NCBI GenBank assembly: GCA_002788675.1
Contig: PFRS01000005.1
Span: 199,767 to 263,766 of the forward strand
DNA length: 64,000 bases
Reading direction: 5' to 3'
Source of the DNA: Candidatus Pacebacteria bacterium CG_4_9_14_0_2_um_filter_40_15
Lineage (GTDB): Bacteria; Patescibacteriota; Microgenomatia; UBA1400; PJMF01
Shown here in pieces: positions 11,607 to 42,839 of the stretch. A program made the position numbers and the translations under genes. Under the pieces are notes generated by a model. The model made no database searches and had not been told where the DNA came from. It was given only the letters and a program-made list of their open reading frames with translations. Positions within the stretch are counted from its first letter, which is position 1. The number at the start of each line of letters is the position of its first letter.

Positions 11607-12632
11607 CTACAGTCTTCGGTATTTTTTACGGAGTAATTCAAATAGATAGGTTGCCCAATACTTCCAAGAAAGCGGAATATCCTGAGCAACTAAATAGGGT
11701 ACTTCGTCTCCACCAAAGCCTCGCTTGAACAGTGAAACCCCTGCAAAACGGTGTTCTGTTTCCTCTTTTGGGGCAATCCCCCAGAAGTTGTAACGACTAC
11801 ATCCACGTGCCTTTGCTTCAGCAATTGCTCTCCACTGACAAGCATAACTCCCGGGTAATTTTGCATTTCCCTCAGTTGAAACACCATAGTGGTACACTGC
11901 TTCACCGTTATAAAAAATGATAAATGCAGATGCTAATAATTCGTGTTGGTCAGAATAAGAATGCACGAGGGCAACTTGATCCGCAGCAACAAATACGTCA
12001 AACTGTGCTTCTAGAAATTCGTAGGAAAAGGGAATAAAGCCTTGTCTCTCTGCAACTTTTTTCTCCTCCTCATAAAACGCAAGTATATCTTTGGAATCTG
12101 TCGAAATTGTTGTTGTGATACCAAGTTTCTCAGACTTTCTAATTGAGGAACGGGTGTTCTTACGCATAGCAGCAAGAAGTTCTTCATCGGAAAGTGACAA
12201 ATCGAGCTGTAACGTGAGATCAGCTGTTACATGCATTGGTGCAACTAATGCTTTAATCGAAGTCAGCAGTTTTGGTGAAACTTTTTCACCAATAACTTGT
12301 GGTCTAAATCTAATAAAGACACAACCTTGATTAGTCGCTGTTTTGTAGATCTCAGCAAATAGACGTTCAACGAGCGAACTACTTTTCCAATCAACCAAAG
12401 GACCACCTGCAATAGCCATGTAGGTTCCTCTCTTCGCCGTTTCTATGATCATGCTTACTTGAGCAATAACAACGTTTTGGGAAATCGCTTGAAGACGTAA
12501 AACTTTTTTACCTATCCGTTCATTAAAAACACCCCAGTTATATGACTGAAGGAAATTAGCTTCAGGAAATTGTGCGATGCCAGATTCCCATTCTGTTTGG
12601 GTCGGCGCCCAATTAAAATCTATGCTCGTCAT
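11607..12632 (-). CDS. FemAB-family aminoacyl-tRNA-dependent peptidoglycan peptide-bridge transferase (FemX-like)
   Basis: 341 aa. The N-terminus FPEANFLQSYNWGVFNERIGKKV and the overall length/composition are typical of the FemABX (GNAT-like tandem) family. Moderate support. Confidence 0.55.
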   Translation of the reverse strand: MTSIDFNWAPTQTEWESGIAQFPEANFLQSYNWGVFNERIGKKVLRLQAISQNVVIAQVSMIIETAKRGTYMAIAGGPLVDWKSSSLVERLFAEIYKTATNQGCVFIRFRPQVIGEKVSPKLLTSIKALVAPMHVTADLTLQLDLSLSDEELLAAMRKNTRSSIRKSEKLGITTTISTDSKDILAFYEEEKKVAERQGFIPFSYEFLEAQFDVFVAADQVALVHSYSDQHELLASAFIIFYNGEAVYHYGVSTEGNAKLPGSYACQWRAIAEAKARGCSRYNFWGIAPKEETEHRFAGVSLFKRGFGGDEVPYLVAQDIPLSWKYWATYLFELLRKKYRRL

Positions 12633-13882
12633 ACATGTGCTGCCTTAATACTTGCAATAATTCTCTCGGCATCTCCACTTTCGATATTTAAATGCGTTGG
12701 TAAAGTAATAATGTGCGCTGCAAGTTTTTCCGCATTTGCTGCTGAACCGTGTGTGTACATTGAATTACACTTAAGCGTGCTGCAATCAACTGCTTTTCTA
12801 TACCATCGATCTGAAATAAATATGTTTTTGCGTTTAAGCATTTTAGCAATTGTATCTGGATTACGTACGAGTATTGGATAGCGGAGTAATGATCCACTCA
12901 TTAGTTCATCTTCTGACAGAGTAGCTGCTGAGCCGCCAAAAGCTTTGTGATATATCTGAGCAATCTCTTCCCGGTGAGCTAACTGAGTATCCACATGTTC
13001 AAGTCGATATACAATTAATGGTACAAAAGAATGTGGTAAAAGTGATGCTTTTGTTGTAGCAACAAACAATGGAGACTGGATTAAGCCTATTTTTTTTCCA
13101 ACAAAAGCCAAAAATTTTCCCAGTGTTAGCACGCTAAATCCCCAACTAAATGTAGTGCGAATAATCCAAGTCAATACAGGATACAAATGCTCTCTAATAA
13201 TTGCGCTTTGTCCAGCAGAGACTTGTAACGTAGCGTACCACTGTGCAACGTGTTTTTTTTGCTCGTGCGTGTAGGTCCTAACACAACAAGCACCTCCAGT
13301 CACGGCATCGAGAATTTTATCTCTACCAAACGAAAAGATCGTTGCATCACCAATGGTACCAACGGGATCTCCTTTTTCGGTAACAGCCCCATATCCTTGA
13401 GCTAGATCTTCGATTAAAACCAGCTTTTGTTTCTTACACCATAGAGCAATTTTTTGTATGTCAGGAACTGAACCTAATGAATACTGAACGAGTACTGCTT
13501 TGACGGGAACAGCACTTGTCTTAAATGCAACTTGCACAGTTTCTAGACTAAGATTAGCAGAAGAGTCTGCAATATCTGCATACACAGGTGTAGCTCCAGT
13601 ACGCGAAATTCCTTCTTCGACAGCAAAACAACTAAATGCTTGGGTGATCACACCATCACCTCGACCAATTGAAAATGCTTTTAGCGCACACTCGATTGCA
13701 TCACGTCCTTTATAAAAAAAGTAAGTATCTCCTTTGAACGTACTGTCAAAATACACTTTTAGTTGCGAAAATTGCTGTGAGAGATAACTCTGACTCAGAC
13801 GTGCCTGAACAAGGCCTTGAAAACTAATCAGACTATCTGTAAAAGTGTAGTTTGATCCAAGACTACTAAAAATTGGCTTCAT
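12629..13882 (-). CDS. DegT/DnrJ/EryC1/StrS-family PLP-dependent aminotransferase (sugar aminotransferase-like)
   Basis: DGVITQAFSCFAVEEGISRTGATPVYADI; KAVLVQYSLGSVPDIQKIALWCKKQKLVLIEDLAQGYGA; GDATIFSFGRDKIL (lysine of the SF..K motif). Confidence 0.6.
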   Translation of the reverse strand: MKPIFSSLGSNYTFTDSLISFQGLVQARLSQSYLSQQFSQLKVYFDSTFKGDTYFFYKGRDAIECALKAFSIGRGDGVITQAFSCFAVEEGISRTGATPVYADIADSSANLSLETVQVAFKTSAVPVKAVLVQYSLGSVPDIQKIALWCKKQKLVLIEDLAQGYGAVTEKGDPVGTIGDATIFSFGRDKILDAVTGGACCVRTYTHEQKKHVAQWYATLQVSAGQSAIIREHLYPVLTWIIRTTFSWGFSVLTLGKFLAFVGKKIGLIQSPLFVATTKASLLPHSFVPLIVYRLEHVDTQLAHREEIAQIYHKAFGGSAATLSEDELMSGSLLRYPILVRNPDTIAKMLKRKNIFISDRWYRKAVDCSTLKCNSMYTHGSAANAEKLAAHIITLPTHLNIESGDAERIIASIKAAHV

Positions 13883-13912
13883 ATTGATTTCATGTTTCAG
13901 TGATGTACTACG

Positions 13913-15385
13913 TTATTCTTTTGTTTCTTGCAAAGAATTTTGTATCCACGCTGGCATACGACCCTCTACAAGAACTATACCACTCTGGTTTTTGCTCTGC
14001 AGGAGTGAAAGTATCTCAGCTTGATCTGTCTTCATTTTAGTTCCAAGAATTGATTGCATAGTTGTTTTACCAGTTTCACCTACATACCACACCTGATCCG
14101 CTACTGTATTTAGGCGTTCTGCCAAACGTTGATGTATTTCATCTGAAGAAGTTCCTAAATCCACAATTCCTGGTGTAATAACGACCTTTTGTTTTGCAGG
14201 TAGTGTTGCCAAAAGTTCAAGCGCTTCTGTAAATCCTTTTGGATTACTACTTCCTCCATCATCAAAAATAATTCTACCAGAGCTATGTGCGTTGGAGGTA
14301 ATAAAGCTTTCAGTGGGTTGAAATGATCTAACTGCCTGTACAAGCTCGCTTTCATCAAGATACAGAGCAGCCACAGTCCAAGCCAAAGCAATATTTTGTA
14401 TGTATTGTTTACCAATAATGCGCGTGTTGATGACTTGTGTTTTATACTTAAATGACAAGTGCCCAGCTTCTGTGATATGCACATCTGAAAAAAGATCATG
14501 CCAGTTGATGACAGTATGCATAACACTTTGTGAGCTCTGTCCCCTACGAGCAATTTCTTGTGTTTCTTCACTTGAACCATTACTAAAAACTTTTTCTCCA
14601 GGTTGCAGAGCTGCTACCAATTCTGCTTTTGCAGAAATAATGTTATCTTCAGATCCAAAGAGACCTAAATGTTGTGGTGCAAACCCAGTAATTATCGCCA
14701 AGTTAGGGTGAATATATTTTGTTATCCGAGCAATTTCTCCAGGTACATAGGCAGCATACTCTATAACGGCAAATTTTTGGTTTGTGTACCCTCTTAAAAT
14801 ACTTTTTACAATTGAAAATAGAGTGTTGTATGATTTTGGCGTAGCAAATACCGTACTGTTTTGTGAAAGTAGATGACTTAATAGTGCCTTAGTACTGGAT
14901 TTCCCATAACTGCCAGTGATCCCAATCACAATAGGTTTGTGTAACATCATAAGTCGTTGTGCTTTTAGAGCCGTAATTCTAACTACGATACTTGAAATTA
15001 CTGACGTTGGTGCTGAAGCGATCAGGATAATTGCTGGAGCGCCAATGTACAAGATGAGTATCGCACTCAAAACAGCAGAAATACTTGCTGGATTTTGAAA
15101 ATCTACAATCCTTAGAGCACCTAGTAAAATTGAGAGAATTAGTAAAAAAGCTAATACCATAACCACGATTATTCGACTGGTAAGTTTAGGCCGCTTACAC
15201 CCTGCTCGAGTTAGATCGGATCGTTGTGGGATCAATCGCAAAAGTTCTTGTCTTCCTTCTGAAGAGCGTAGAAAGAGGTGCAACCGATCTAATCGGTATT
15301 CTTTCTGTTGTAAAAAAGCAAACCAACGAAGATACCGCACACAAATCCCACTTGTTAACAGTATGAGTAAGAGAAGTGTCTTCAT
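13913..15385 (-). CDS. Mur ligase family protein (MurF-like) with atypical N-terminal ~150-aa multi-TM region
   Basis: P-loop IVIGITGSYGKSSTKALLSHLL. C-terminal IFDDGGSSNP resembles the MurF DDSYNANP motif. The N-terminus carries 3-4 hydrophobic helices instead of the usual soluble domain 1. Confidence 0.6.
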   Translation of the reverse strand: MKTLLLLILLTSGICVRYLRWFAFLQQKEYRLDRLHLFLRSSEGRQELLRLIPQRSDLTRAGCKRPKLTSRIIVVMVLAFLLILSILLGALRIVDFQNPASISAVLSAILILYIGAPAIILIASAPTSVISSIVVRITALKAQRLMMLHKPIVIGITGSYGKSSTKALLSHLLSQNSTVFATPKSYNTLFSIVKSILRGYTNQKFAVIEYAAYVPGEIARITKYIHPNLAIITGFAPQHLGLFGSEDNIISAKAELVAALQPGEKVFSNGSSEETQEIARRGQSSQSVMHTVINWHDLFSDVHITEAGHLSFKYKTQVINTRIIGKQYIQNIALAWTVAALYLDESELVQAVRSFQPTESFITSNAHSSGRIIFDDGGSSNPKGFTEALELLATLPAKQKVVITPGIVDLGTSSDEIHQRLAERLNTVADQVWYVGETGKTTMQSILGTKMKTDQAEILSLLQSKNQSGIVLVEGRMPAWIQNSLQETKE

Positions 15386-19842: not shown

Positions 19843-22800
19843 GTGACCGAACGTACTACCGATACCACTGTTCAGACACCTGTTCAACTCTCAGAAACAT
19901 TTGAATCTGCAGAATCTCTTTCGCCGCTTGAATTGTATGAACAAAAACGCTTTGCTGACTTGTTTTCTGTGTTCCCAACACTTCCAGAGGCTGCAAAACA
20001 AACCACATTACAACTACTTGCTCAAAAAGAGACTGTTCGACTGCTTGCCACCTACTTTGACCTCCTTGAACTCGATGCTGCAAATCTGGAATATTTGTTT
20101 GGGAACTGTGTAACTTTTGAAACCTGTACGTATTTTTTTGAAAATCTTACCCAAACCACCTTCACCTATGATGAAATCATTGCAACGCTCTTAAAAGTTA
20201 ATACTCAATTAGTAATTCTTGCTTTTCATAACCCTACTGCATTAAGTGCAAAAACCATTGAACTTCTCTCACAAGAAGGACATGACTACTCACATACTTT
20301 TGATCGCCTCATTGATTCCTGTACTAATGATGGAAAAATCGCAATACTTACACATTGGTTAGCTACGTACGAGTACGATACATTAGAGTCATGTATTGAG
20401 AAAACAGTGCACATTCCTCGCCCCTTAGTTGACAAACTGCAATCAATTCTACCCATAGAAGATTTTTTGTTTCATGTTAGTCGTTACGAAAGTTTTGACC
20501 ATGCGTCAGTTTTTGCAAAACTTTCTAAAGCTAATAAACTCTATGAACTGTATTCGTGTGCTCGCTATTTCCCAGAATGTAGCGAGACATTTTATTCTGA
20601 ACAACTGACTGAACACCCTGAGCATGAGATACTTTTAGTTACAAACTTTTCAAATTTCAGACATGATTCAGTCTTAGCTGATATTGAGCAAAGTATCTCA
20701 GCAAACAATTCTAAACATTTTGATGCAGATCGAAAATTAAGAATTCTATTGAATGATCAAATCCCACCTTTTACTTCTGTTACAGATCAGGAAGAGCTCT
20801 TTACCCTTTTAGCAACCCCAAAAACTGTGAGTAGGTGCCTAGCAATTGCCCTATCTACAAAACATTTTAATCTGATTCCACAAAGTGAACTTTTGGTAAG
20901 AATTGCAGGAATTCAAAATGGATACAGTGCACTCTACGATCATATAACAAATCCTTCATATGAATCAGGTATTCATTCAATACCTAATTCACTCTTTCAG
21001 AAATTGTTACTATTCGGTGGCCAAGACAGCTATACTCTCTTTAACAAAACAATTTTAAGTAAAATCGATAATTGGGATCAAAAAATGACTGCACAATTTT
21101 TTGAAGCTCAAAATCTAACTGAATATATATCTTACAAGATGTACTATTTTACAGAGGTAGAGAGCGATTTCTTTATTCGTAATTTTCCAGAAACTGAATT
21201 AGCTTCTGCAGTATATCGACATATACTTTGGGCAAAAAAAGTCTTCACAAAGGACGAGGTCTTCTTTTATCTAAAAAAACACGAAGATTACTCATTTCAT
21301 CAAATGTTGACCTTTGGAAATGAATCCCTCAAAACGTACATAGGAGAGACTGCAACCGATACAGAGTTGAGAGATGCTTTTGATGTAACCACAAAAGAAG
21401 GAGAACACGCTTTTCTCTACTTCAAAAGTAAGTATGTAGTACAGTCAGAACAACTGACTGTTAGTGATCGCATTGAAATTATTTTGGCAGAAGTTCAAAA
21501 CAAAGGCACCCTGCTTTTTGAAATACTCTATAATCAACCAGATCAACTAACCTATACAGACTTACAAGATGTTCTTAAAGTTTATCCAAACCTGTTTACA
21601 TTCAACCAATTTAGTAGATTTATTCATTGCCTTAAATGGGAAACATTCCCAACATCTTTTTTTCAAAAGGTACTAGCTCAAGCAAGTAGTGATAAAAAAT
21701 TTGAAGAAATCATTAGTTGTTTGCCCTGGATTCTCACCCATCTTTCTCCAGTTGTTCGAGAGTCTTTAACAACTGAAATATCAGAAAGCATTGCTGCATG
21801 CGAGCAAAAAGATATTTTTAATATGGTGGAATACTATCTCTCAATATCACGAATTGATGTGGCAGTTTTTATTGTTTCAGAGTTTGCGAAAATACAAGAG
21901 AGCCAAGATTTTTTTCAGCTACTCAGACTCCAAGTGGGAACTGAAAAAATTTCTAAAATAATGCAAAAGCTACTTGAAGAAGAAAATTTTGAGCAAGCAC
22001 ATATACTGCAAAAAAAGAGTAATATCTTCACTCTTGATGATTCGCATCTTTCACTCCCTTCAGAAACCCCTACTGAAAATTCAAAAGATACACTTTCCAC
22101 AATTAAGCGAGATGTAGAAACTATCGATCTTTTTAAAGATTTTGGCCTCTTTTATGCACATAAGTTTTTAGAGTATGAATTAGCACAATTGCATAACCAA
22201 CTTACTTTTCCAAGAACAATTGATCATAATTTTTTGGTTACTCAGCCACAAGAATACAGCTCAACAATACATAGGGCGAGTCTCGATCATATCGAAAAAT
22301 TTTTGGAAAATCAGGCAGAAGCACATACTCAAAAAGTATTACATACCCTGACACAACAACTTGTTGTAGCAACTGATTTTCATACATTCTCACAAGATAA
22401 CTTGCGCAATACAAAAGATGCCTACCTCATGGTGCCTCAACTACCCCAACTCTTACATACTAAATCTGATCTAGTACTAGCATTACAAAAACACATTAAA
22501 GTCTATGAAAAAATTGACAGAAAAGATTGGATGATGATTGCGATGGCTGCATATAGACTCGTCCTCCCAAATGCAAAAGAAAATGCTTCATTTTTACTTG
22601 ACCTTATTACAGATCTTGAACATGGGTCTGGATTTATTTTTTCTAGAGGGTACTACGAAAAATTCACTCTCAGTGACAACGAATACTCTCATAACCAATA
22701 TCGTGCCTTTCTGAGCTTCAAATCATCATGTACTTCCTTTACTGATTGGATTTCACACCTAAGATCTCACAACTATGTCCCGGAACCCCAACTAAAAGAC

Positions 22801-22869
22801 CTAGAAAGTATTTATAAAGCAATCCAACATCTTAAAACCGCCCCAACGCGCGCAAAAGGCTATGAATAA
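19843..22869 (+). CDS. Large hypothetical cytoplasmic protein (1008 aa), no recognisable domains
   Basis: Uninterrupted 3-kb ORF, aromatic/Leu-rich, with no TM. The only N-terminal start is GTG at 19843, with no SD and TATACT 11 nt upstream. The start is uncertain. Confidence 0.55.
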   Translation: MTERTTDTTVQTPVQLSETFESAESLSPLELYEQKRFADLFSVFPTLPEAAKQTTLQLLAQKETVRLLATYFDLLELDAANLEYLFGNCVTFETCTYFFENLTQTTFTYDEIIATLLKVNTQLVILAFHNPTALSAKTIELLSQEGHDYSHTFDRLIDSCTNDGKIAILTHWLATYEYDTLESCIEKTVHIPRPLVDKLQSILPIEDFLFHVSRYESFDHASVFAKLSKANKLYELYSCARYFPECSETFYSEQLTEHPEHEILLVTNFSNFRHDSVLADIEQSISANNSKHFDADRKLRILLNDQIPPFTSVTDQEELFTLLATPKTVSRCLAIALSTKHFNLIPQSELLVRIAGIQNGYSALYDHITNPSYESGIHSIPNSLFQKLLLFGGQDSYTLFNKTILSKIDNWDQKMTAQFFEAQNLTEYISYKMYYFTEVESDFFIRNFPETELASAVYRHILWAKKVFTKDEVFFYLKKHEDYSFHQMLTFGNESLKTYIGETATDTELRDAFDVTTKEGEHAFLYFKSKYVVQSEQLTVSDRIEIILAEVQNKGTLLFEILYNQPDQLTYTDLQDVLKVYPNLFTFNQFSRFIHCLKWETFPTSFFQKVLAQASSDKKFEEIISCLPWILTHLSPVVRESLTTEISESIAACEQKDIFNMVEYYLSISRIDVAVFIVSEFAKIQESQDFFQLLRLQVGTEKISKIMQKLLEEENFEQAHILQKKSNIFTLDDSHLSLPSETPTENSKDTLSTIKRDVETIDLFKDFGLFYAHKFLEYELAQLHNQLTFPRTIDHNFLVTQPQEYSSTIHRASLDHIEKFLENQAEAHTQKVLHTLTQQLVVATDFHTFSQDNLRNTKDAYLMVPQLPQLLHTKSDLVLALQKHIKVYEKIDRKDWMMIAMAAYRLVLPNAKENASFLLDLITDLEHGSGFIFSRGYYEKFTLSDNEYSHNQYRAFLSFKSSCTSFTDWISHLRSHNYVPEPQLKDLESIYKAIQHLKTAPTRAKGYE

Positions 22870-22929: not shown

Positions 22930-23520
22930 ATGCAAAAACTAAATCTCTCTGGGACCGATACACTCGAGAAAGAAACGTCGGTTGACTCTGCTGTAATTGT
23001 GGCTGATAATAGTGAATCGGAAAGCGATGGCAGTGATTATGCAGTAGAAATACCTTCTCTACGGAAAAAAGAAGCACCCATGAAAAAATCTCAAAAAACA
23101 TTCCTAACTTTTGCCTTTGTAGCAGTTCTCCTTGGTGTTGTAACTGGATTCAGTGGGTATCGTCTTTATGCAAAATCCGGAGCAATGAGTGGCAGCAAAG
23201 AAGATCTTACAATGGTTGTTGATGGCGCAATCAAAAAAGGTGCTACTTTTGGTAGTAATGACGAATCATTTAAAGATACCGCGAAGGGATATCTCGAAAT
23301 TGGAGGATTTGAAGGTGAAGGTTCACATAAACTCCTTCGTCCGGGCGGAGATAACCAAACAGTCTACCTAACCTCTTCAGTCACTGATCTCAGTGAGTTT
23401 GAAGGTATGGAAATTGAAGTTTGGGGTGAAACATTCCAAGGACAATCAGTTGGTTGGCTTATGGATGTAGGTCGAGTAAAAGTACTTGAAACCAAAGCAC
23501 AACCACCTTCAGAAGAGTAA
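22930..23520 (+). CDS. Hypothetical membrane-anchored protein (acidic N-terminus, one TM, extracytoplasmic domain)
   Basis: 196 aa. TATACT ends 7 nt before the ATG, so it is probably leaderless. Confidence 0.5.
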   Translation: MQKLNLSGTDTLEKETSVDSAVIVADNSESESDGSDYAVEIPSLRKKEAPMKKSQKTFLTFAFVAVLLGVVTGFSGYRLYAKSGAMSGSKEDLTMVVDGAIKKGATFGSNDESFKDTAKGYLEIGGFEGEGSHKLLRPGGDNQTVYLTSSVTDLSEFEGMEIEVWGETFQGQSVGWLMDVGRVKVLETKAQPPSEE

Positions 23521-23639: not shown

Positions 23640-24809
23640 ATGATAGTTTTTAATTCTGTATACCGCACCTTCGATCCAGATGACTCTGGTTTAAAGGATA
23701 TTTCATTTACCATTGACCCTGGTGAACTTGTTATGATCACAGGCCACTCTGGTAGTGGAAAAACTACCATCATGCGCCTGCTTACTAAAGAGTACACTCC
23801 AAATAAAGGTGAGATTAGTTTTGATGAACAAAATCTTTCCAAGATTAAAAAAAGCAAACTCCATGAACACAGACGAAAAATTGGCGTCGTCTTCCAGGAT
23901 TATCGCCTAATTCCAGAAATGAATGTCTGGGAAAATATTGCACTGCCTTTAGCCATTACCGGTAAAAAAGATACTGAAATTGCCGAGCGCGTAACAGATT
24001 TACTTAATCTGATTCAACTTCCGGAGAAAGCTCATCTCTTCCCAAGTCAGCTTTCAGGTGGAGAAGCACAACGTATTAGTATCGCTCGAGCACTTGCAAA
24101 TGCTCCTAGAGTTATTTTTGCTGATGAACCAACGGGAAATCTCGATCAAGATACCTCACAATCCATTGCTCATTTACTCAAGCAAATAAATGAATTGGGA
24201 ACAACATTGATATTTGCTACCCATGACCCCAAAGTTCTCTCGATATTTTCTGATAAACGTCATATTAACTTAAAAAATGGCACCGTCGAGTTTGATACCG
24301 GTGAAAAGAAACCAAATTCAGCTAAAAAAGACTCAAAAAATGAAGATAAAGATACTGATAAGAAAGCTTCAGAAAAAGAAGGATCCACTAATAAAAAATC
24401 AGCAAATATCACAAAAAGCTCATCTAAAGAAAGTTCTGTGAAGAGTGAAACTACTACTGGCACTTCAGAACCTGAATCAAAGGATACATCAGAAAAAGAT
24501 ACAAAAGAAGAAAAATCAGAGAAACCAGCAAAAAAATCTGGTGGCTTGTTATCTCGCTGGTTTGGCTCAAAAGAATCAAAAACTGCAACTGAAAAAACTA
24601 ATGCAGATGGAAATGATCTCGATATCGAGATGAGATTAGTCGAGACAGATTCAAAAACTGAAGACACTAAAAATGATGACAAGACATCTGTCACAATGAA
24701 GGATGAGAAAACTTCCAAAAAGATAAATACTGCAAATAAATCTGATATTGATGCAGAAAAATCTTCAAATGATACATCAAAACACAAATCATCCAAGAGC
24801 AAAAAGTAA
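23640..24809 (+). CDS. ftsE: Cell-division ABC ATPase FtsE with ~165-aa low-complexity C-terminal extension
   Basis: Walker A GHSGSGKTT, signature LSGGEAQRISIARAL and Walker B IFADEPTGNLD lie within the first ~220 aa. The remainder is a K/S/E/D/T-rich disordered tail. Confidence 0.85.
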   Translation: MIVFNSVYRTFDPDDSGLKDISFTIDPGELVMITGHSGSGKTTIMRLLTKEYTPNKGEISFDEQNLSKIKKSKLHEHRRKIGVVFQDYRLIPEMNVWENIALPLAITGKKDTEIAERVTDLLNLIQLPEKAHLFPSQLSGGEAQRISIARALANAPRVIFADEPTGNLDQDTSQSIAHLLKQINELGTTLIFATHDPKVLSIFSDKRHINLKNGTVEFDTGEKKPNSAKKDSKNEDKDTDKKASEKEGSTNKKSANITKSSSKESSVKSETTTGTSEPESKDTSEKDTKEEKSEKPAKKSGGLLSRWFGSKESKTATEKTNADGNDLDIEMRLVETDSKTEDTKNDDKTSVTMKDEKTSKKINTANKSDIDAEKSSNDTSKHKSSKSKK

Positions 24810-24812
24810 CCT

Positions 24813-25682
24813 ATGAACTCACTCACCGCCGCCCTCACCACAATCCGCAGATCTCCCTACCAGGCTTTGGTCTCGATTCTTATGGTCAGTGTTACCTTTT
24901 TTGTTGCTTATATCTTTAGTTTTTTCATTGCTGGCGCTAACGAAGTACTGAGTTACTTCGAGACGCAGCCACAAATTATTGCCTTTTTCGAACTTGAAAC
25001 CCCGAGTAGCAGCATTGATTCGCTCAAAAAAAAGATGGAGAGTCAGTGGTATGTCGATTCAGTCAAAATTGTTACCCAAGATGAAGCTCTGAAAATTTAT
25101 CAAGAAGACAATAAAACTGATCCACTCCTTCTGGAGTTAGTCACAGCTGACATTCTGCCAGCTAGTATCGAAGTAGCAGCTAAAGATCTGAATTCCCTTG
25201 TTCTTGTAAAAGATGAACTCGAAAAAGCTCCAGATATTGAAGATGTCGTTTATCAAGAAGATATTGTAAAAACACTTGGTTCTTGGACACAATCTGTCCG
25301 TATGATTGGCGCTGGTGCCATTCTCACGTTAGCAACCATTTCATTCTTAATAATCATGATTGTGGTTGCCATGAAGGCAGCACATAAACGAGGTACCATT
25401 AAAATAATGCGCTATATAGGCGCAACGTCTTGGTATATTAAGCTTCCATTTCTCCTTGAAGGCGTGCTCTATGGCATGATTGGTTCACTTCTTGGTTTTG
25501 GCGCCACTATGGCCGCTCTTATGTATGCTTCCCCTTGGGTTTCTGAATTTTTAGGTGAAGTTCACATATTCCCTATACCGCCCGAATTCTTAGCTGCCCA
25601 AGTAGGAGCTGGCACAGTAGCTGGAATGCTTCTTGGCGGCTTTGCTGGTCTCTTGGCAGTACAAAGATTAATAAAGCAGTAG
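24813..25682 (+). CDS. ftsX: Cell-division permease FtsX
   Basis: 4-TM FtsX topology with a periplasmic loop. It follows ftsE by 3 nt. Confidence 0.8.
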   Translation: MNSLTAALTTIRRSPYQALVSILMVSVTFFVAYIFSFFIAGANEVLSYFETQPQIIAFFELETPSSSIDSLKKKMESQWYVDSVKIVTQDEALKIYQEDNKTDPLLLELVTADILPASIEVAAKDLNSLVLVKDELEKAPDIEDVVYQEDIVKTLGSWTQSVRMIGAGAILTLATISFLIIMIVVAMKAAHKRGTIKIMRYIGATSWYIKLPFLLEGVLYGMIGSLLGFGATMAALMYASPWVSEFLGEVHIFPIPPEFLAAQVGAGTVAGMLLGGFAGLLAVQRLIKQ

Positions 25683-25684
25683 CT

Positions 25685-26971
25685 ATGCGAACTCACTCCA
25701 CTGGCTTTTTCCACACTTGGCCGTCACTTTTGCGGAAGTTTTCTATTGGAATTTTTGCGGCACTCTGTATTTTTTCCACACTGAGTATTACTCCAACTTC
25801 TGTTTCTGCAGAGGCATGTGACGAAAACTGTAACAAAGATGCAGATGATAGCGAATACCTCCAATGTATTTCTCGTAAGAAGGAATGTCTAGAAAAAGAA
25901 CTTTCAGTCATTTCAGATCAAAAGAACACCCTCAACAACACTATTAGCCTGATTAGTGGCAACATTAGAGTTCAAGAGATACAAATTTCTCAGACAACGG
26001 CAGAAATCCGTGCACTCGAAAAAGAAATCACCGAACTCGACCAACGCATCGGTGGCCTCAACATTTCCCTTGATCGCCTCACCTCACTGTTAGTCAATAG
26101 AATTCGCAGCCAATATAAGCGCAATCGCGTCTCACCACTAGCACTCTTTACCAAGGCAGATACTTTCAACTCATTCCTTACACAGTATAAATACATTGGT
26201 CATGCTGGTGAACAAACCGCCAAGGCCATGAGCCTCGCCGAGTCCCAACGACTACTCTATGACGATCAAAAAACACTCAAAGAGGAAAAACAAACCGAGT
26301 TCCAGGCAAAAACTAACCAATTGCAAAGTCAGAAAACCGAACTCGACCGACAAAAATCAGAACAGACCGCTATCTTGGGAGTTACCAAAAATAATGAGGC
26401 AAAGTATCAAGAACTCCTGGCTGAGGCCCAAAAAGAACTCCAACAAATTGCCGACGCTGCCAACGTAGTTATCCGTGAAGGCAATGGAGTGCCCGTTAAA
26501 AAGGGTGAAACCATTGGTACTATGGGAAATTCAGGATTCTCGACCGGAGCCCACCTGCACTTTGGCGTGTATCGTTACAGTGCAGATCAGTTTGGTCAAA
26601 CCTCAAGTTGGGGGTGGTACTATAGTAACTACGTAAATCCAATTGAAAAACTCGGACCTACATCTGTTACTTGGGATACAGGCTGTGGCCATGATCCCAG
26701 TGGCAATCAGACATCAGGAAACGGCAGCTGGCAGTGGCCAATGACATCATCACGCATTACCCAAAACTATGGTTCAAATACCTGTTACAACTGGATGTAC
26801 GGCAATAAGCCACATCCTGCAATCGATATTGTTGGCATGGGTTCTAAATCTGTCACCGCCGTTGAGGATGGCGAAGCCTACTTCTGCAGGAACTGCCTCA
26901 ATGATGGAGGTAATGGTGTTTTCGTTTTTCATAGTGACAACTACATGACTTTGTACTGGCATCTTCAGTAA
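25685..26971 (+). CDS. Peptidase M23 family murein hydrolase/activator (EnvC-like) with coiled coil and Cys-rich C-terminal domain
   Basis: Signal peptide and a long coiled coil. M23 motif GTMGNSGFSTGAHLHFGVY (HxH). There is an extra ~130-aa C-terminal domain with 6 Cys. Confidence 0.8.
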   Translation: MRTHSTGFFHTWPSLLRKFSIGIFAALCIFSTLSITPTSVSAEACDENCNKDADDSEYLQCISRKKECLEKELSVISDQKNTLNNTISLISGNIRVQEIQISQTTAEIRALEKEITELDQRIGGLNISLDRLTSLLVNRIRSQYKRNRVSPLALFTKADTFNSFLTQYKYIGHAGEQTAKAMSLAESQRLLYDDQKTLKEEKQTEFQAKTNQLQSQKTELDRQKSEQTAILGVTKNNEAKYQELLAEAQKELQQIADAANVVIREGNGVPVKKGETIGTMGNSGFSTGAHLHFGVYRYSADQFGQTSSWGWYYSNYVNPIEKLGPTSVTWDTGCGHDPSGNQTSGNGSWQWPMTSSRITQNYGSNTCYNWMYGNKPHPAIDIVGMGSKSVTAVEDGEAYFCRNCLNDGGNGVFVFHSDNYMTLYWHLQ

Positions 26972-27088: not shown

Positions 27089-27169
27089 ATGCAATAGTAA
27101 TAACAGCAGACAAGCTGATTGGAGCCTACAACCACTCCAACTAGTAGATTCTGCACAAAAGGGAAACAT

Positions 27170-27505
27170 ATGAAAGCATTAAAACTCACCTTAGCTGGTG
27201 TTCTTGCTACAGCAACAATGCTCAGCTTCTCAACTGTGGTTTCTGCAGATACAGCTGAACAGTCACAATCTGCTGACCAAAAAGTAACAGTTAAATGTAC
27301 AACTGGTTCTTATGGACAAGACTCAACTTGTGAAGCTTCTGGAGAGCAATCTCTCGAGCAATCACAAAAGATTGTCTATACCAACGTTCTTGGTAAAACC
27401 CATGAGCCTGTTGATACAGCTCTCGACTTTGGTACTGCATCTGCAGCTGCCATGAGTTTAGTAACTGGTGCTGGTGCACTCGTACTTAAACGTAAGATTG
27501 CTTAA
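27170..27505 (+). CDS. Small secreted protein with C-terminal hydrophobic segment + KRK (sorting-signal-like)
   Basis: Signal peptide MKALKLTLAGVLATATMLSFSTVVSA. C-terminus ...GTASAAAMSLVTGAGALVLKRKIA. The start is set at the second Met; the ORF track starts at 27119. Confidence 0.55.
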   Translation: MKALKLTLAGVLATATMLSFSTVVSADTAEQSQSADQKVTVKCTTGSYGQDSTCEASGEQSLEQSQKIVYTNVLGKTHEPVDTALDFGTASAAAMSLVTGAGALVLKRKIA

Positions 27506-39394: not shown

Positions 39395-40195
39395 GTGTTA
39401 AAAAAATACCTTGCAATCTATCGCTACATGTTTATTCGCTCACTCCAATTTAGAACTGAGTTAGTCATTTACGTGCTCCTCGATATTCTGCCATTTTTTG
39501 TGCTCTTCTTTGTGTGGCAGGCAGCATTTTCTGGTAAAACTGAGATTAATTCATTTACGCTTCCCCAAATCACACAGTACTACTTCTTAGTAATGATTAT
39601 TGAGCGCGTCACTTCTACCTACTTTGAGAACTGGCGTGCAACAGAAATTAGAGAAGGAAAAATTGATTACTTTCTTACTCGTCCATTCTCCTACATCAAC
39701 GACGTCTTTTCAAAAGATGTAGGTGGCAAACTGGTTAGTCTTGCTATTAGTTTGCCTGGTCTGGCCGTTGCGTTTTTTTTAATTAGTTTGGTGCTCCCTG
39801 TGGCGCCACTTTCAGTGGCGCCACACCAAATCTTTATCTTCATTTTCTTTATGATTACGGGATACCTCATCCAGTTCATGATTGCGTTGTGGATTGTATT
39901 GCTTACTTTTTGGTTTGAAGGCTCATCCGGGCTTGAGCATTTTAAATGGATTTCAGTTTCACTTTTCAGTGGAGCTATGATTCCCACAACATTCATGCCA
40001 ACTTGGATTCAATCGGTGTACCAATTTTTACCACTCAAATATATTTTTGCTGTTCCGATTACCTATCTTCAAGGGACGCTTTCACTTACTCCAGGTATGT
40101 TCCTTGAATTAGCAATAGCACTACTCTGTATGTTTGGTATAACCAGAGTGTTCTGGCACTACGCGCTCTATCAATATAGTTCTGCAGGTGGATGA
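39395..40195 (+). CDS. ABC-2 type transporter permease, paralog 1 (COG4587/COG3694-like)
   Basis: 6 TM. The C-terminal YQYSSAGG motif is shared with the other paralogs. Confidence 0.6.
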   Translation: MLKKYLAIYRYMFIRSLQFRTELVIYVLLDILPFFVLFFVWQAAFSGKTEINSFTLPQITQYYFLVMIIERVTSTYFENWRATEIREGKIDYFLTRPFSYINDVFSKDVGGKLVSLAISLPGLAVAFFLISLVLPVAPLSVAPHQIFIFIFFMITGYLIQFMIALWIVLLTFWFEGSSGLEHFKWISVSLFSGAMIPTTFMPTWIQSVYQFLPLKYIFAVPITYLQGTLSLTPGMFLELAIALLCMFGITRVFWHYALYQYSSAGG

Positions 40196-40995
40196 GGTTT
40201 ACTATGAAAAAATACTGGCACCTTTTTTGGCATTTTAGAAAAGTCGACTTCATGCGCATGATGGAGTATCGAACAGACTTCGTCTTTTGGCTCATTGTCT
40301 CACTTATGTGGACTGCATTTAACTACTTCTTCTTCTTTCTTATTTTTGGAACAACTGAAAGTGTGGCTGGATGGTCACACCAGGAATTAGTAATTGTACT
40401 TTCGTTCTTTACCATGATAGACGCACTAACCTGGTCCGTGTTTTACGCCAACATGACACAATACACTCAATCTGTTTTTTCTGGTGAACTCAGCAAATAC
40501 TTACTTCAACCGGTAAGTACAATTTTTCTACTCACAACACAACGAATGAGTTACAACAACATTCCACGATTCCTCATTGGACTCATTGTATTAGTCATTA
40601 CGGCTGTAAAGATGGATATTTCCGTCTCTATGATGGAACTAGCGCTCATTGTAGTTCTTTTTATATGCGGGGCGGTTTTCATCTATTCTGGTTGGTTCAT
40701 TCTTGCCACACTCTCGCTTTGGGTAGACAAGCTGCAAAATATCAATGATATTATGCCCGGCTTCCGTCGTGTATACCAAATCCCTAGACAAGTATTCACT
40801 GGGGTAACTGCTCTCACCTTCACCTTTATTTTCCCCTTAGGCCTGATTACATCACTTCCAAGCGAAATACTCACTGGTAAAAATCCACCAGTGTTGCTTA
40901 TTCTTTATTTTATCGTAGCTACAACTTGTCTGGCTTTAACAGCACGTGCATTTTTTAAGTATTCAATTAAACAGTATTCAAGTGTCGGCGGATAA
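40192..40995 (+). CDS. ABC-2 type transporter permease, paralog 2
   Basis: 6 TM with N-terminal KKYWHLF and C-terminal KQYSSVGG. It overlaps the upstream gene by 4 nt. Confidence 0.6.
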   Translation: MRFTMKKYWHLFWHFRKVDFMRMMEYRTDFVFWLIVSLMWTAFNYFFFFLIFGTTESVAGWSHQELVIVLSFFTMIDALTWSVFYANMTQYTQSVFSGELSKYLLQPVSTIFLLTTQRMSYNNIPRFLIGLIVLVITAVKMDISVSMMELALIVVLFICGAVFIYSGWFILATLSLWVDKLQNINDIMPGFRRVYQIPRQVFTGVTALTFTFIFPLGLITSLPSEILTGKNPPVLLILYFIVATTCLALTARAFFKYSIKQYSSVGG

Positions 40996-41025
40996 CCGCT
41001 ATACTACTAAGGTAACAAAGGATCA

Positions 41026-42027
41026 ATGTCAAAACCACCAATAATCTCTATCACAAACTTAAAGAAACATTTTAAGGTCTATAAAAAGAAACCCGGACTT
41101 TGGGGTTCTATTCAATCGCTCTGGCATCGCGAGTACGAAGTTGTTAAAGCTGTTGACGGCATTTCTTTTGATATTGCTGAAGGTGAGATTGTTGGCTTTA
41201 TTGGTATGAACGGAGCTGGTAAAACTACAACGCTTAAAATGCTATCTGGGCTCTTATACCCAACCGAGGGTCAACCAAGTGTGCTAGGCTACAACCCTTG
41301 GGAACGAAAAGCATCGTTCCAAAAACAATTTGCACTGGTCATGGGACAAAAAAATCAGTTGTGGTGGGATCTTCCAGCAGTTGAAACATTTTATCTTAAT
41401 AAAGCCATCTATGAAATTCCCGACGAACAGTTCGAAAAGACACTCAAAAAATTGGTAAAACTTTTGGATGTGGAAGATATTATTCGCATTCAAGTCCGTA
41501 AACTTTCACTTGGTCAACGTATGAAGTGTGAGCTCATTGCAGCACTCCTTCACAATCCAAAGGTCCTCTTCCTAGATGAGCCAACCATAGGGCTCGATGT
41601 GGTCATGCAAAAAACACTTCGAGACTTTATTAAAGCTTACAACAAAGAATTTGGCGCAACAATTATCTTAACCAGTCACTACATGGATGATGTCAAAGAA
41701 CTCTGTGAACGTGCAATCATTATTGATCATGGTAAAAAGATCTTCGACGGAAAACTGCAAGATATTATTGATAAGTATGCTCGGAATAAAAAACTCTCAC
41801 TCGTCTTCTCAGAACCTGTTACCAAAAAAGACCTGCAAGCATTTGGTGATCTTAAAGAGTTTAGTGACGACGGTTCTCACTACACAGCTACCCTACTGGT
41901 GGCAAGAAAAAAGGCTACAGCAGTCGCAGCACAAGTCCTTTCTAAATTTCCTGTCGTAGACGTCACAATCGAAGAACCACCAATTGAGGCAATTATTAGA
42001 GAAGTTTTTTCAAAAGAAGGTTCATGA
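41026..42027 (+). CDS. ABC transporter ATP-binding protein (uncharacterised exporter family, COG4586-like)
   Basis: Walker A GMNGAGKTTTLKM, signature LSLGQRMKCELIAAL and Walker B LFLDEPTIGLD, with a C-terminal extension domain. Confidence 0.85.
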   Translation: MSKPPIISITNLKKHFKVYKKKPGLWGSIQSLWHREYEVVKAVDGISFDIAEGEIVGFIGMNGAGKTTTLKMLSGLLYPTEGQPSVLGYNPWERKASFQKQFALVMGQKNQLWWDLPAVETFYLNKAIYEIPDEQFEKTLKKLVKLLDVEDIIRIQVRKLSLGQRMKCELIAALLHNPKVLFLDEPTIGLDVVMQKTLRDFIKAYNKEFGATIILTSHYMDDVKELCERAIIIDHGKKIFDGKLQDIIDKYARNKKLSLVFSEPVTKKDLQAFGDLKEFSDDGSHYTATLLVARKKATAVAAQVLSKFPVVDVTIEEPPIEAIIREVFSKEGS

Positions 42028-42839
42028 AAACCACAACAATTAAGAAGTACTGGGCACTCCTCACAATCTCCTGGGAAAATGGGTTGGTGTATCGCATGTC
42101 AGTTTTTATGTGGCGCCTGCGGCGCTTCTTGGCCGCTGTTATGGCATTAACTATTTGGTCGACAATCTATACCAGTGCTGCTCCCGAAGCCACCACCTTT
42201 GGGTATGCCCAGTCAGACATGATCAGCTATATTTTTCTTATTTCAATTCTCCAAAGTTTGGTACTGGCAACGGCACTCAATGGCCTGGCCCAGGATGTGT
42301 ATAGCGGTGCAATCAGCAACCAACTTCTTAAACCACTAAGCCTTACAGTTTACTTAATCATGCAAGACCTTGCAGATAAACTTAAAAATGCGTCAGCGTT
42401 GCTCTTTGAAATTATTGCATTATTTCTCATCTTTAAGCCTGTAGTTCACTTGCCAGATCTTCCCACTCTTGGTATTTTTATTGTTTGGACACTGGCAGCA
42501 ATTGTCCTTAATTTCTGTATTTCACTACTCTTTGGAAGTCTTGGCTTCTGGAGTCCTGAAACTTGGGCTCCACGATTTTTGTTTTATACGTTACTCCAAT
42601 TTACTGCTGGGCAGCTTTTTCCACTTGATGTTTTACCCACAATTTTTCAAAAAGTTATGTACGCAACACCATTTCCTTATCTATCGTTTGTACAAACACA
42701 ATTATTTTTACAAAAACTCACACTATCAGAAATTCAACTTCATTCGATGGTACTCCTCGGCTGGGTTGCAGTATTAGCCTTTCTTGCACAAGGTATTTGG
42801 AAAAGGGGACTGCGTGACTATGACGCAGCAGGCAGATAA
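42024..42839 (+). CDS. ABC-2 type transporter permease, paralog 3
   Basis: KKYWALL N-terminus, 6 TM and C-terminal RDYDAAGR. Confidence 0.6.
   Translation: MKTTTIKKYWALLTISWENGLVYRMSVFMWRLRRFLAAVMALTIWSTIYTSAAPEATTFGYAQSDMISYIFLISILQSLVLATALNGLAQDVYSGAISNQLLKPLSLTVYLIMQDLADKLKNASALLFEIIALFLIFKPVVHLPDLPTLGIFIVWTLAAIVLNFCISLLFGSLGFWSPETWAPRFLFYTLLQFTAGQLFPLDVLPTIFQKVMYATPFPYLSFVQTQLFLQKLTLSEIQLHSMVLLGWVAVLAFLAQGIWKRGLRDYDAAGR

What the first reader, a model, noticed from the sequence alone, without database searches (positions are those of the whole stretch)
23640..26971. FtsEX-EnvC-like divisome module with atypical extensions
FtsE (Walker A, signature and Walker B all present) carries a ~165-aa low-complexity C-terminal tail, K/S/E/D/T-rich and probably disordered, which canonical FtsE lacks. 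The M23 peptidase (EnvC-like coiled coil, HxH motif present, so potentially catalytically competent rather than a mere activator) has an extra Cys-rich ~130-aa C-terminal domain. Tails like these could mediate protein or nucleic-acid interactions. An active M23 coupled directly to FtsEX would be a streamlined septal hydrolase system in a genome that likely lacks amidase activators.
Basis: partly seen in the sequence, partly recalled or inferred. Interest (0 to 1): 0.5.

Follow-up and report, generated by a model that had tools for sequence, protein, structure and literature searches.

The report
FtsEX operon with circularly permuted M23 peptidase
A cell-division operon in an uncultured Pacebacteria bacterium pairs the FtsEX motor with a cell-wall-cutting enzyme whose catalytic domain has its two halves in swapped order but all catalytic residues intact, and its FtsE carries a floppy tail with a small MinD-like motif that may bind membrane.

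Summary
The three genes exist as described: ftsE (389 aa), ftsX (289 aa) and a coiled-coil M23 protein (428 aa), in a tight operon in a Candidatus Pacebacteria genome.

The FtsE tail (175 aa) is real, found in many independent assemblies, and confined to one clade. It is disordered by composition but holds two conserved islands. One is GΦΦx[RK]ΦFGKK, which resembles the E. coli MinD membrane-targeting sequence.

Best reading: an FtsEX-controlled, probably active, septal endopeptidase. It is a new structural variant of a known kind of system.

The parts
23640..24281 (+). ftsE, ABC ATPase core (aa 1-214)
   Evidence: TIGR02673 FtsE 1-214 vs profile 1-213/214, E 1e-74, 250.9 bits (cutoff 264.85). 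PF00005 E 1e-37. Walker A, signature, Walker B and H-loop read in the translation.
24282..24809 (+). ftsE C-terminal tail (aa 215-389 plus stop), disordered by composition and specific to one clade
   Evidence: Composition and charge-hydropathy calculation. No Pfam hit. No DNA tandem repeats of note. Tails of 35-175 aa occur only where the FtsE core is at least ~56% identical to this one. WWE3 and Microgenomates relatives have FtsE of ~225-230 aa.
24534..24572 (+). Tail island 1, KSGGLLSRWFGSK (aa 299-311): amphipathic motif resembling the MinD membrane-targeting sequence
   Evidence: 77 of 119 homologous tails have an island with at least 4 of 7 FWLIM residues, against 4% of shuffled tails. 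Consensus [KP]-G-F-F-x-[RK]-L-F-G-K-K. The E. coli MinD MTS is KGFLKRLFGG (PMC5471200).
24615..24650 (+). Tail island 2, DLDIEMRLVETD (aa 326-337): alternating hydrophobic/acidic motif
   Evidence: Phi-x-Phi-x-Phi-E-[ST]-Phi-D-type motif in 31 of 119 tails, against ~2 in shuffles. The window copy was matched by eye to FEIEIEMVETED and FEVEIELIETD of close relatives.
24813..25682 (+). ftsX (289 aa)
   Evidence: PF18075 FtsX_ECD E 6e-14 and PF02687 FtsX E 1e-10. Full-length alignment to the TIGR00439 and NF038347 FtsX models, below their cutoffs.
25685..25810 (+). M23 protein, N-terminal signal peptide or membrane anchor (aa 1-42; cleavage after VSA is inferred)
   Evidence: Hydrophobic helix at aa 14-33 in the AF2 model. 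Sequence read directly. The cleavage site is an inference only.
25847..26479 (+). M23 protein, EnvC/PcsB/RipC-like coiled coil (aa 55-265). The last helix (aa 234-265) is the most conserved part.
   Evidence: AF2 helices 55-77, 83-147, 161-234 and 238-265, model pLDDT 85. Foldseek top hit 8tzl_E EnvC (E 6.6e-4), with 8idc_E RipC, 6tpi_A EnvC and 4cgk PcsB also listed. Weak PF24568 CC_PcsB hits in homologues. Conservation 3.2 bits for aa 234-265 against 2.3 bits for the rest of the coiled coil.
26480..26578 (+). Permuted M23 domain, canonical C-terminal half placed first (aa 266-298; HxH = H290, H292)
   Evidence: Pfam PF01551 profile positions 59-90 of 96 match aa 267-298. Aligns to the HxH end of Csd3, TagE and DipM. 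H290 and H292 invariant in 114 sequences.
26579..26710 (+). Conserved connector joining the canonical C-terminus to the canonical N-terminus (aa 299-342; W311, Y312, P319, W330, C334 invariant)
   Evidence: Alignments A1 and A2. 2.9 bits per column. Beta-strands at aa 326-330 and 340-344 in the model.
26711..26971 (+). Permuted M23 domain, canonical N-terminal half placed last (aa 343-428 plus stop; Y372, H377xxxD381, C367, C401xxC404, H426; the protein ends YWHLQ)
   Evidence: Aligns to DipM residues 16-93 and Csd3 residues 191-266. The re-joined sequence gives one Pfam stretch, profile 2-90 of 96, 70 bits, and contiguous alignments to solved M23 structures, best E 1.8e-10. H377, D381 and H426 invariant, Y372 at least 90% conserved.
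22930..23520 (+). Possible fourth member: small single-pass membrane protein always found just upstream of ftsE
   Evidence: Same position in all six loci examined. Alignment A4 gives 45-48% identity to near relatives and only 20-26% to distant ones. No Pfam family. Homology across the clade and function are both unproven.

Best explanation
This is the FtsEX cell-division module of a Candidatus Pacebacteria (Patescibacteria/CPR) bacterium, encoded together with its extracytoplasmic partner. The partner is a secreted or anchored protein with an EnvC/PcsB/RipC-type coiled coil, which presumably docks on the FtsX extracellular domain. It ends in an M23 (LytM-type) zinc-endopeptidase domain that is circularly permuted: the strand-loop carrying HxH comes first, a conserved 44-residue connector follows, and the half carrying the oxyanion Tyr, HxxxD and the third catalytic His comes last. 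The protein therefore ends two residues after a catalytic histidine, and the last, highly conserved coiled-coil helix runs straight into the strand that leads to HxH. Because every catalytic residue is conserved, the protein most likely cuts peptidoglycan cross-links itself, like PcsB, CwlO and RipC, rather than activating an amidase as EnvC does. The FtsE ATPase cycle would switch it on through FtsX and the coiled coil. In this clade FtsE has also gained a disordered C-terminal tail with two conserved short motifs. The first (G-Phi-Phi-x-[RK]-Phi-F-G-K-K) looks like the MinD amphipathic membrane-targeting helix and most likely binds the inner face of the membrane. Shown: gene order, domain order, residue conservation, phyletic spread and synteny. 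Inferred: FtsX-coiled-coil docking, catalytic activity, ATP-driven activation and membrane binding by the tail motif.
Confidence: 0.72

Rival explanations
1. The M23 protein is a non-catalytic regulator (a LytM factor like EnvC, NlpD or DipM) that activates another hydrolase, despite retaining the catalytic residues.
For: The closest solved architecture is EnvC. The NCBIfam models that match the N-terminal half best are amidase activators (ActS, NlpD, DipM), all far below their cutoffs. In this protein a catalytic His sits two residues from the free C-terminus, which might perturb the active site.
Against: EnvC-type factors are defined by loss of catalytic residues and/or zinc (PMC9662197). 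Here Y372, H377, D381, H426, H290 and H292 are invariant or nearly so across 114 sequences, and the motifs are kept in 67 of 69 divergent clusters. That conservation is hard to explain without catalysis or metal binding. No amidase gene was seen among the neighbours I annotated, but only part of the window was scanned.
Confidence: 0.15
2. The FtsE-tail island 1 is a docking motif for a divisome protein (for example FtsZ, FtsA or SepF) or an autoregulatory element for the FtsE dimer, not a membrane anchor.
For: It is a short conserved motif inside a disordered region, it is internal rather than C-terminal, and FtsE is already membrane-associated through FtsX. In E. coli FtsEX is reported to localise to the Z ring and to interact with FtsA (title of Du et al. 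2019, as listed). A second conserved motif of a different type, alternating hydrophobic/acidic, lies downstream and suggests protein-protein contacts.
Against: The hydrophobic pattern at i, i+1, i+4 and i+5 with flanking Lys/Arg is very close to the MinD MTS: PGFFKRLFGRK in P0169 against KGFLKRLFGG. No partner is identified.
Confidence: 0.35
3. One reading: a canonical EnvC-like M23 domain followed by an additional Cys-rich interaction domain.
For: Residues 299-428 contain four conserved cysteines (C334, C367, C401, C404). Pfam's best stretch covers only aa 267-298.
Against: There is no HxxxD and no N-terminal half of M23 upstream of HxH: the coiled-coil helix ends at aa 265. Residues 343-428 align to the N-terminal half of solved M23 domains and contain HxxxD. 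Re-joining restores a single full-length M23 match. Only two of the cysteines are widespread in the permuted family.
Confidence: 0.03
4. The tail and/or the odd M23 end are assembly or frameshift artefacts.
For: The AG-rich low-complexity DNA carries a long antisense shadow ORF (24260-24841).
Against: Identical proteins occur on 31-34 contigs from independent assemblies, including four NCBI protein accessions. Homologous tails share conserved motifs in 119 clusters. The stop directly after YxH[LVM]x is conserved in at least 69 clusters.
Confidence: 0.02

Closest known systems
FtsEX-EnvC (E. coli, V. cholerae, P. aeruginosa; PDB 8tzl, 6tpi, 8hd0)
   Different: The EnvC LytM domain has the canonical order and is degenerate, with no complete catalytic set; it activates the amidases AmiA and AmiB (PMC9662197). 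Here the domain is permuted and keeps every catalytic residue. The EnvC NCBIfam model scores 16 bits against a cutoff of 270.
FtsEX-PcsB (S. pneumoniae, 4cgk), FtsEX-RipC (M. tuberculosis, 8idc/8jia) and FtsEX-CwlO (B. subtilis)
   Same: FtsEX coupled through a coiled coil to a hydrolase that is itself catalytic. PcsB and RipC coiled coils appear among the Foldseek hits, weak PF24568 CC_PcsB hits occur in homologues, and JGI names some relatives 'CwlO-like'. This is the closest functional analogy.
   Different: Their catalytic domains are CHAP or NlpC/P60 cysteine peptidases, not M23 metallopeptidases (from my own knowledge of these systems).
Active M23 endopeptidases (LytM, lysostaphin, Csd3, ShyA)
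   Same: The same catalytic residues: H(x)3D, HxH, a third His and an oxyanion Tyr. After re-joining, the sequence aligns contiguously to all of them.
   Different: In all of them the order is Tyr, HxxxD, His, HxH within one contiguous segment. Here it is HxH, a 44-aa connector, then Tyr, HxxxD, His, and the end of the protein.
Circularly permuted NlpC/P60 domains (YaeF/poxvirus G6R and LRAT families; Anantharaman and Aravind 2003, as summarised in PMC6403190)
   Same: A precedent for a cell-wall peptidase fold whose catalytic residues are swapped in sequence order by circular permutation.
   Different: A different, unrelated fold and catalytic type. No equivalent was found for M23 in five literature searches or in the 2022 M23 review.
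MinD C-terminal membrane-targeting sequence (E. coli KGFLKRLFGG)
   Same: Almost the same short amphipathic pattern with flanking basic residues.
   Different: In MinD it is the extreme C-terminus of a folded ATPase. Here it is embedded about 80 residues from the end of a 175-aa disordered tail on an ATPase that is already bound to a membrane protein.

Membership tests
Peptidase M23 (MEROPS M23 / Pfam PF01551) | H(x)nD zinc-binding motif | tested here: met
   H377-P-A-I-D381, invariant in 114 sequences; aligns to the PHYGVD motif of Csd3; motif definition from PMC9662197.
Peptidase M23 (MEROPS M23 / Pfam PF01551) | HxH motif | tested here: met
   H290-L-H292, invariant; aligns to GPHLHFGVY of Csd3.
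Peptidase M23 (MEROPS M23 / Pfam PF01551) | Third catalytic His about 30 residues before HxH (His260 of LytM), and an oxyanion Tyr (Tyr204 of LytM) | tested here: inconclusive
   The residues are present and conserved (H426 invariant; Y372 at least 90%). However, H426 lies 134 residues after HxH, at the C-terminus, not about 30 residues before it. The Y372 = Tyr204 equivalence comes from my own reading of the spacing, not from a computed alignment.
Peptidase M23 (MEROPS M23 / Pfam PF01551) | One contiguous domain running from Hx3D to HxH (InterPro delimitation) | tested here: not met
   Two stretches in reverse order in the native sequence, and one stretch only after in-silico re-joining. This makes it a permuted variant of the family, not a canonical member.
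Peptidase M23 (MEROPS M23 / Pfam PF01551) | Score above the Pfam gathering threshold | tested here: met
   56.2 bits against a cutoff of 28.7.
Peptidase M23 (MEROPS M23 / Pfam PF01551) | M23 beta-sheet fold with a substrate groove | tested here: inconclusive
Peptidase M23 (MEROPS M23 / Pfam PF01551) | Zinc binding and peptidoglycan endopeptidase activity | not testable with these tools
   Requires biochemistry.
FtsE (TIGR02673) | Equivalog score cutoff | tested here: not met
   250.9 bits against a cutoff of 264.85, although it is the best-scoring model and aligns over 1-213 of 214 positions. NCBI names the protein only 'ATP-binding cassette domain-containing protein'.
FtsE (TIGR02673) | Complete ABC ATPase motifs, and the gene adjacent to ftsX | tested here: met
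   Motifs read in the translation; ftsX starts 3 nt downstream; this arrangement is conserved in all loci.
FtsX | FtsX extracellular domain plus FtsX-type permease C-terminal domain | tested here: met
   PF18075 at 52.9 bits and PF02687 at 42.2 bits, both above their cutoffs. The NCBIfam equivalog cutoffs are not reached (153 against 255).
EnvC-type LytM factor | Degenerate M23 groove lacking catalytic residues or zinc, and activation of an amidase | tested here: not met
   The full catalytic set is conserved. Amidase activation is not testable here.
EnvC-type LytM factor | N-terminal coiled coil that binds the FtsX extracellular domain | tested here: inconclusive
   A coiled coil is present and its best solved match is EnvC. 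Binding to FtsX is inferred from synteny only.
MinD-type amphipathic membrane-targeting sequence | Short amphipathic helix with a hydrophobic face at i, i+1, i+4, i+5 and flanking basic residues | tested here: met
   The pattern is present and conserved in 77 of 119 tails; it was compared with KGFLKRLFGG. The hydrophobic moment is similar to that of MinD but does not discriminate.
MinD-type amphipathic membrane-targeting sequence | Located at the extreme C-terminus, and binds membrane | tested here: not met
   The position is internal, aa 299-311 of 389. Membrane binding is not testable here.

The most novel reading that the evidence does not exclude
The permutation is not neutral rewiring. 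By moving the chain termini to the loop right after the catalytic His, it attaches the last coiled-coil helix directly to the active-site sheet. The FtsEX ATPase stroke would then gate catalysis mechanically at the active site, which differs from EnvC's release of a restraining arm. In addition, the Pacebacteria-clade FtsE tail would be a new cytoplasmic targeting or regulatory device, combining a MinD-like membrane-binding helix with a second docking motif, that positions or times the hydrolase in these ultrasmall bacteria.
Probability: 0.25. Interest if true: 0.75.

Novelty: new variant of a known kind. Interest (0 to 1): 0.58.

Why it matters
FtsEX-hydrolase modules are the model for how a cytoplasmic ATPase controls cell-wall cleavage across the membrane. 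How force or conformation passes from the coiled coil to the catalytic domain is still being worked out from a few structures (EnvC, RipC, PcsB).

A large natural family in which the same coiled coil is wired to a different point of the M23 fold, next to the active site and with catalysis apparently retained, offers a natural experiment on that coupling. It also shows that standard domain and fold searches see only a fragment of M23 in these proteins, so M23 surveys that require the canonical motif order would miss or mis-delimit them.

The FtsE tail motifs give a testable handle on how division proteins are positioned in CPR bacteria, whose cell biology is almost unexplored. If the enzyme is active, it is also a candidate peptidoglycan endopeptidase from a lineage with no characterised autolysins that I know of.

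Tried and rejected
- **Foldseek, domain-only model vs PDB:** no significant hit and no M23 domain among the 50 hits listed. I report this as a limitation and do not count it against the fold, because the aligner is sequential.
- **AFDB search:** the library was not available.
- **First regular expression for the tail motif:** too strict (27 of 120). Replaced by a composition-based island test with shuffles.
- **Hydrophobic-moment calculation:** values were similar for the FtsE islands and for the MinD sequences and did not discriminate. Not used as evidence.
- **Tandem-repeat scan of the tail DNA:** only one 31-nt imperfect repeat, so the tail is not a simple repeat expansion.
- **Promoter and terminator scan:** not above the shuffled expectation, so uninformative.
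- **Context of distant permuted members:** both contigs were under 2 kb. One still showed FtsX upstream. The other fragment was too short to call.
- **Literature:** five searches for a permuted M23/LytM domain or for CPR FtsEX partners found nothing relevant. Searches on FtsEX in Patescibacteria and on FtsE with an amphipathic helix also found nothing relevant. Du et al. 2019 (PMC6831102) is not held.
considered and set aside. Nothing supports it beyond the lysine-rich composition.
- **Pseudogene or remnant of a tandem duplication:** rejected because of conservation across at least 69 clusters.
Full report
**1. The observation**

All are on the + strand, separated by 3 and 2 nt.

The first protein matches the FtsE equivalog model end to end over aa 1-214 (E 1e-74, 250.9 bits, just under the curated cutoff of 264.85). 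It has intact Walker A, signature, Walker B and H-loop motifs, which I read in the translation. The second has the FtsX extracellular domain and the FtsX permease domain. The third has an M23 hit above the Pfam threshold, but split into two stretches.

The organism is a Candidatus Pacebacteria/Paceibacterota bacterium. Identical proteins are deposited under four NCBI accessions. They occur on 31-34 contigs from NCBI, JGI, ENA and Logan assemblies, the longest of 1.19 Mb. That excludes misassembly or a frameshift. The surrounding genes are core chromosome: recA, RNase Y, secY, rpoA and EF-G.

**2. What the "extra Cys-rich domain" really is**

Pfam places aa 267-298 on profile positions 59-90 of 96, which is the C-terminal, HxH end of M23. 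Against solved structures, aa 343-427 align to DipM residues 16-93, while aa 270-298 align to DipM residues 103-130. The same inversion appears with Csd3. The two halves of the domain are therefore in swapped order.

I tested this directly by re-joining aa 340-428 to aa 258-339 in silico:
- The native order gives two Pfam stretches and 59 bits. The re-joined order gives one stretch covering profile positions 2-90 of 96, at 70 bits.
- The re-joined sequence aligns without a break across the junction (...YWHLQ|AANVVIREG...) to Csd3, DipM, TagE, ShyA, lysostaphin and LytM. The best E-value improves from 9e-6 to 1.8e-10.

That half carries H377xxxD381 and ends two residues after H426.

**3. Conservation and catalytic competence**

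In 114 full-length homologues, down to about 43% identity, the order is the same and every protein ends YWHL-x. H290, H292, H377, D381 and H426 are invariant, and Y372 is at least 90% conserved.

The M23 review defines the family by H(x)nD and HxH, plus a third His about 30 residues before HxH (His260 in LytM) and an oxyanion Tyr (Tyr204). It states that EnvC and NlpD lack a complete catalytic set (PMC9662197). By those criteria this protein has everything an active enzyme needs, only in permuted order. Activity itself is an inference.

Four cysteines (C334, C367, C401, C404) are conserved in this subfamily. Across the wider permuted family only two are common (47 of 69 representatives have exactly two), apparently the C334 and C367 equivalents. 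I read them as a disulfide stapling the connector to the domain, with the CRNC pair as a second, subfamily-specific disulfide or metal site. I could not check this because I have no coordinates.

**4. Structure**

The full-length AF2 model (pLDDT 85) shows a signal or anchor helix, long helices spanning aa 55-265, and a beta-rich domain. Its best solved match is EnvC in the V. cholerae FtsE/FtsX/EnvC complex (E 6.6e-4). RipC in the M. tuberculosis FtsEX complex, E. coli EnvC bound to FtsX, and PcsB are also listed.

That is what sequential aligners should give on a permuted domain, since only one segment can be superposed at a time. It also means the structural evidence is weak, and the case rests mainly on sequence. 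A permutation-aware superposition is the missing computation.

**5. How widespread it is, and its link to FtsEX**

- **Genome scan.** A scan of one genome per GTDB species found 68 loci. The informative record titles are all Patescibacteria: Pacebacteria, WWE3, and Roizman-, Gottesman- and Daviesbacteria. Other MAG records are titled "uncultured Pseudomonadales", "Gammaproteobacteria" or "Saccharibacteria", and I could not verify those labels. The search patterns were family-specific, so this is a lower bound.
- **Synteny.** In every locus with enough upstream sequence, ftsE and ftsX directly precede the gene. A release-factor gene and a small membrane protein usually lie upstream.
- **Profile search.** A search of 1.84 billion representatives gave 25 clusters at E ≤ 1e-30 and 223 at E ≤ 1e-10. 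Of the 150 listed, 69 full-length clusters and 4 fragments are permuted and end within 3 residues of YxH[LVM]. Another 43 are canonical and 13 are tandem N-C-N-C. 67 of the 69 keep all three motifs.
- **Divergent member.** A very divergent permuted member (P0304) also has FtsX immediately upstream (blastp E 6e-40).

The tandem forms are the kind of intermediate from which a permutation can arise by duplication and end-trimming. I did not test that evolutionary route.

**6. The FtsE tail**

The tail is aa 215-389 (175 aa). It has 38 K, 29 S, 22 T, 20 E and 18 D, is 45% charged, and falls on the disordered side of the charge-hydropathy boundary. It has no Pfam family and no simple DNA repeats.

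It is confined to one clade. FtsE proteins whose core is at least ~56% identical to this one carry tails of 35-175 aa, while WWE3 and Microgenomates relatives with the same permuted M23 partner have canonical FtsE of 225-230 aa. The permutation is therefore older than the tail.

The tail is not featureless:
- **Island 1.** 77 of 119 homologous tails have one hydrophobic island, against 4% of shuffled tails. The consensus is [KP]-G-F-F-x-[RK]-L-F-G-K-K, and this window has KSGGLLSRWFGSK at aa 299-311. The hydrophobic residues at i, i+1, i+4 and i+5, with flanking basic residues, closely resemble the E. coli MinD membrane-targeting sequence KGFLKRLFGG (PMC5471200).
- **Island 2.** An alternating hydrophobic/acidic motif (VTVKVESLD, FEIEIEMVETED; here DLDIEMRLVETD at aa 326-337, matched by eye) occurs in 31 of 119 tails, against about 2 in shuffles.

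I favour membrane binding for island 1 (about 0.45) over a protein-docking role (about 0.35). Island 2 is unexplained.

**7. Mechanism proposed**

Shown: operon structure, domain order, residue conservation and synteny.

Inferred from the EnvC, PcsB and RipC systems: the coiled coil docks on the FtsX extracellular domain, ATP binding and hydrolysis by FtsE changes the coiled-coil conformation, and this switches the C-terminal domain on.

Specific to this family: the last coiled-coil helix (aa 234-265) is the best-conserved part of the coiled coil (3.2 against 2.3 bits per column). It runs, with a 3-residue turn, into the strand that leads to HxH, and the chain ends next to catalytic H426. The regulatory element is therefore attached at the active-site sheet rather than at the far N-terminal edge of the domain. 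This suggests, but does not show, direct gating of the active site, or a role for helix 234-265 like that of EnvC's restraining arm.

A FemAB-family gene and a Mur ligase lie about 10 kb upstream. They hint at a peptidoglycan with interpeptide bridges, the classical substrate of active M23 enzymes. This is only a lead.

**8. Comparison and novelty**

As a system it works like FtsEX-PcsB, -RipC or -CwlO (an FtsEX-controlled active hydrolase) and looks like FtsEX-EnvC (coiled coil plus M23).

It is a member of the M23 family by its motifs and Pfam score. It fails the defining criterion of one contiguous domain running from Hx3D to HxH, so I file it as a permuted variant. It is not an EnvC-type LytM factor by the degenerate-site criterion.

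Circular permutation is documented for the NlpC/P60 wall hydrolases (PMC6403190). I found no description of it for M23 in five searches or in the dedicated 2022 review. Databases name these proteins generically: "peptidoglycan DD-metalloendopeptidase family protein", "CwlO-like" or "EnvC". The search library is incomplete, so prior description cannot be excluded.

**9. Verdict**

The module is an ordinary kind of system with two unusual features: a conserved circular permutation of the catalytic domain, and a motif-bearing disordered FtsE tail. Novelty: new variant of a known kind. Interest: 0.58.

Noticed in passing
window 11607-15385 (- strand): A cluster of a FemAB-family transferase (PF02388, E 1e-32), a DegT/DnrJ aminotransferase and a Mur ligase, about 10 kb upstream of ftsEX. 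FemAB enzymes build peptidoglycan interpeptide bridges, the classical substrate of active M23 endopeptidases.
   Followed up: no
window 22930-23520 (+): A small single-pass membrane protein with a beta-rich C-terminal part lies just upstream of ftsE in all six loci examined. Identity is 45-48% to near relatives and only 20-26% to distant ones. It has no Pfam family and may be a fourth component of the module.
   Followed up: partly
window 19843-22869 (+): A 1008-aa protein with no Pfam family sits between the release-factor gene and the small membrane protein. It is absent at this position in relatives L004 and L005, where the release-factor gene is followed directly by the small protein.
   Followed up: no
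window 25817-25888 (M23 protein aa 45-68): An extra four-cysteine cluster (C45, C49, C61, C68; AEACDENCNKDADDSEYLQCISRKKECLE) lies at the base of the coiled coil in this clade. It is absent from WWE3-type relatives (alignment A1).
   Followed up: no
L006 3626-4120: In one relative, a 164-aa ORF consisting only of an FtsX extracellular domain lies between ftsE and a complete ftsX. It may be a duplicated or split ftsX.
   Followed up: no
proteins P0277, P0280, P0283, P0285, P0296, P0308 and others; P0275: Thirteen representative clusters have tandem canonical M23 domains (N-C-N-C), which are possible intermediates for permutation by duplication. P0275 is an 1118-aa protein with a permuted M23 domain at its C-terminus, so the permuted domain is not restricted to the ~400-aa architecture.
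   Followed up: no
window 24615-24650 and homologous FtsE tails: A second conserved tail motif, alternating hydrophobic/acidic (VTVKVESLD-like), often lies at the extreme C-terminus in relatives. It occurs in 31 of 119 tails against about 2 in shuffles. Its function is unknown.
   Followed up: partly
window 27119-27505 (+): A 128-aa protein with an N-terminal signal peptide and a C-terminal hydrophobic stretch followed by KRKIA. This resembles a cell-surface sorting signal, but there is no LPXTG.
   Followed up: no
window 24260-24841 (-): A 193-aa antisense ORF overlaps the FtsE tail. It is a shadow ORF of the AG-rich low-complexity coding sequence, not a gene.
   Followed up: partly
window 39395-43633 (+): Four consecutive ABC-2 family permease genes (PF06182) surround a single ABC ATPase gene.
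   Followed up: no
loci L010-L016, L035-L042 and others: Many MAG records carrying this gene, which is otherwise seen in Patescibacteria, are titled 'uncultured Pseudomonadales', 'Gammaproteobacteria' or 'Saccharibacteria'. These look like mislabelled submissions, but I could not verify that here.
   Followed up: no
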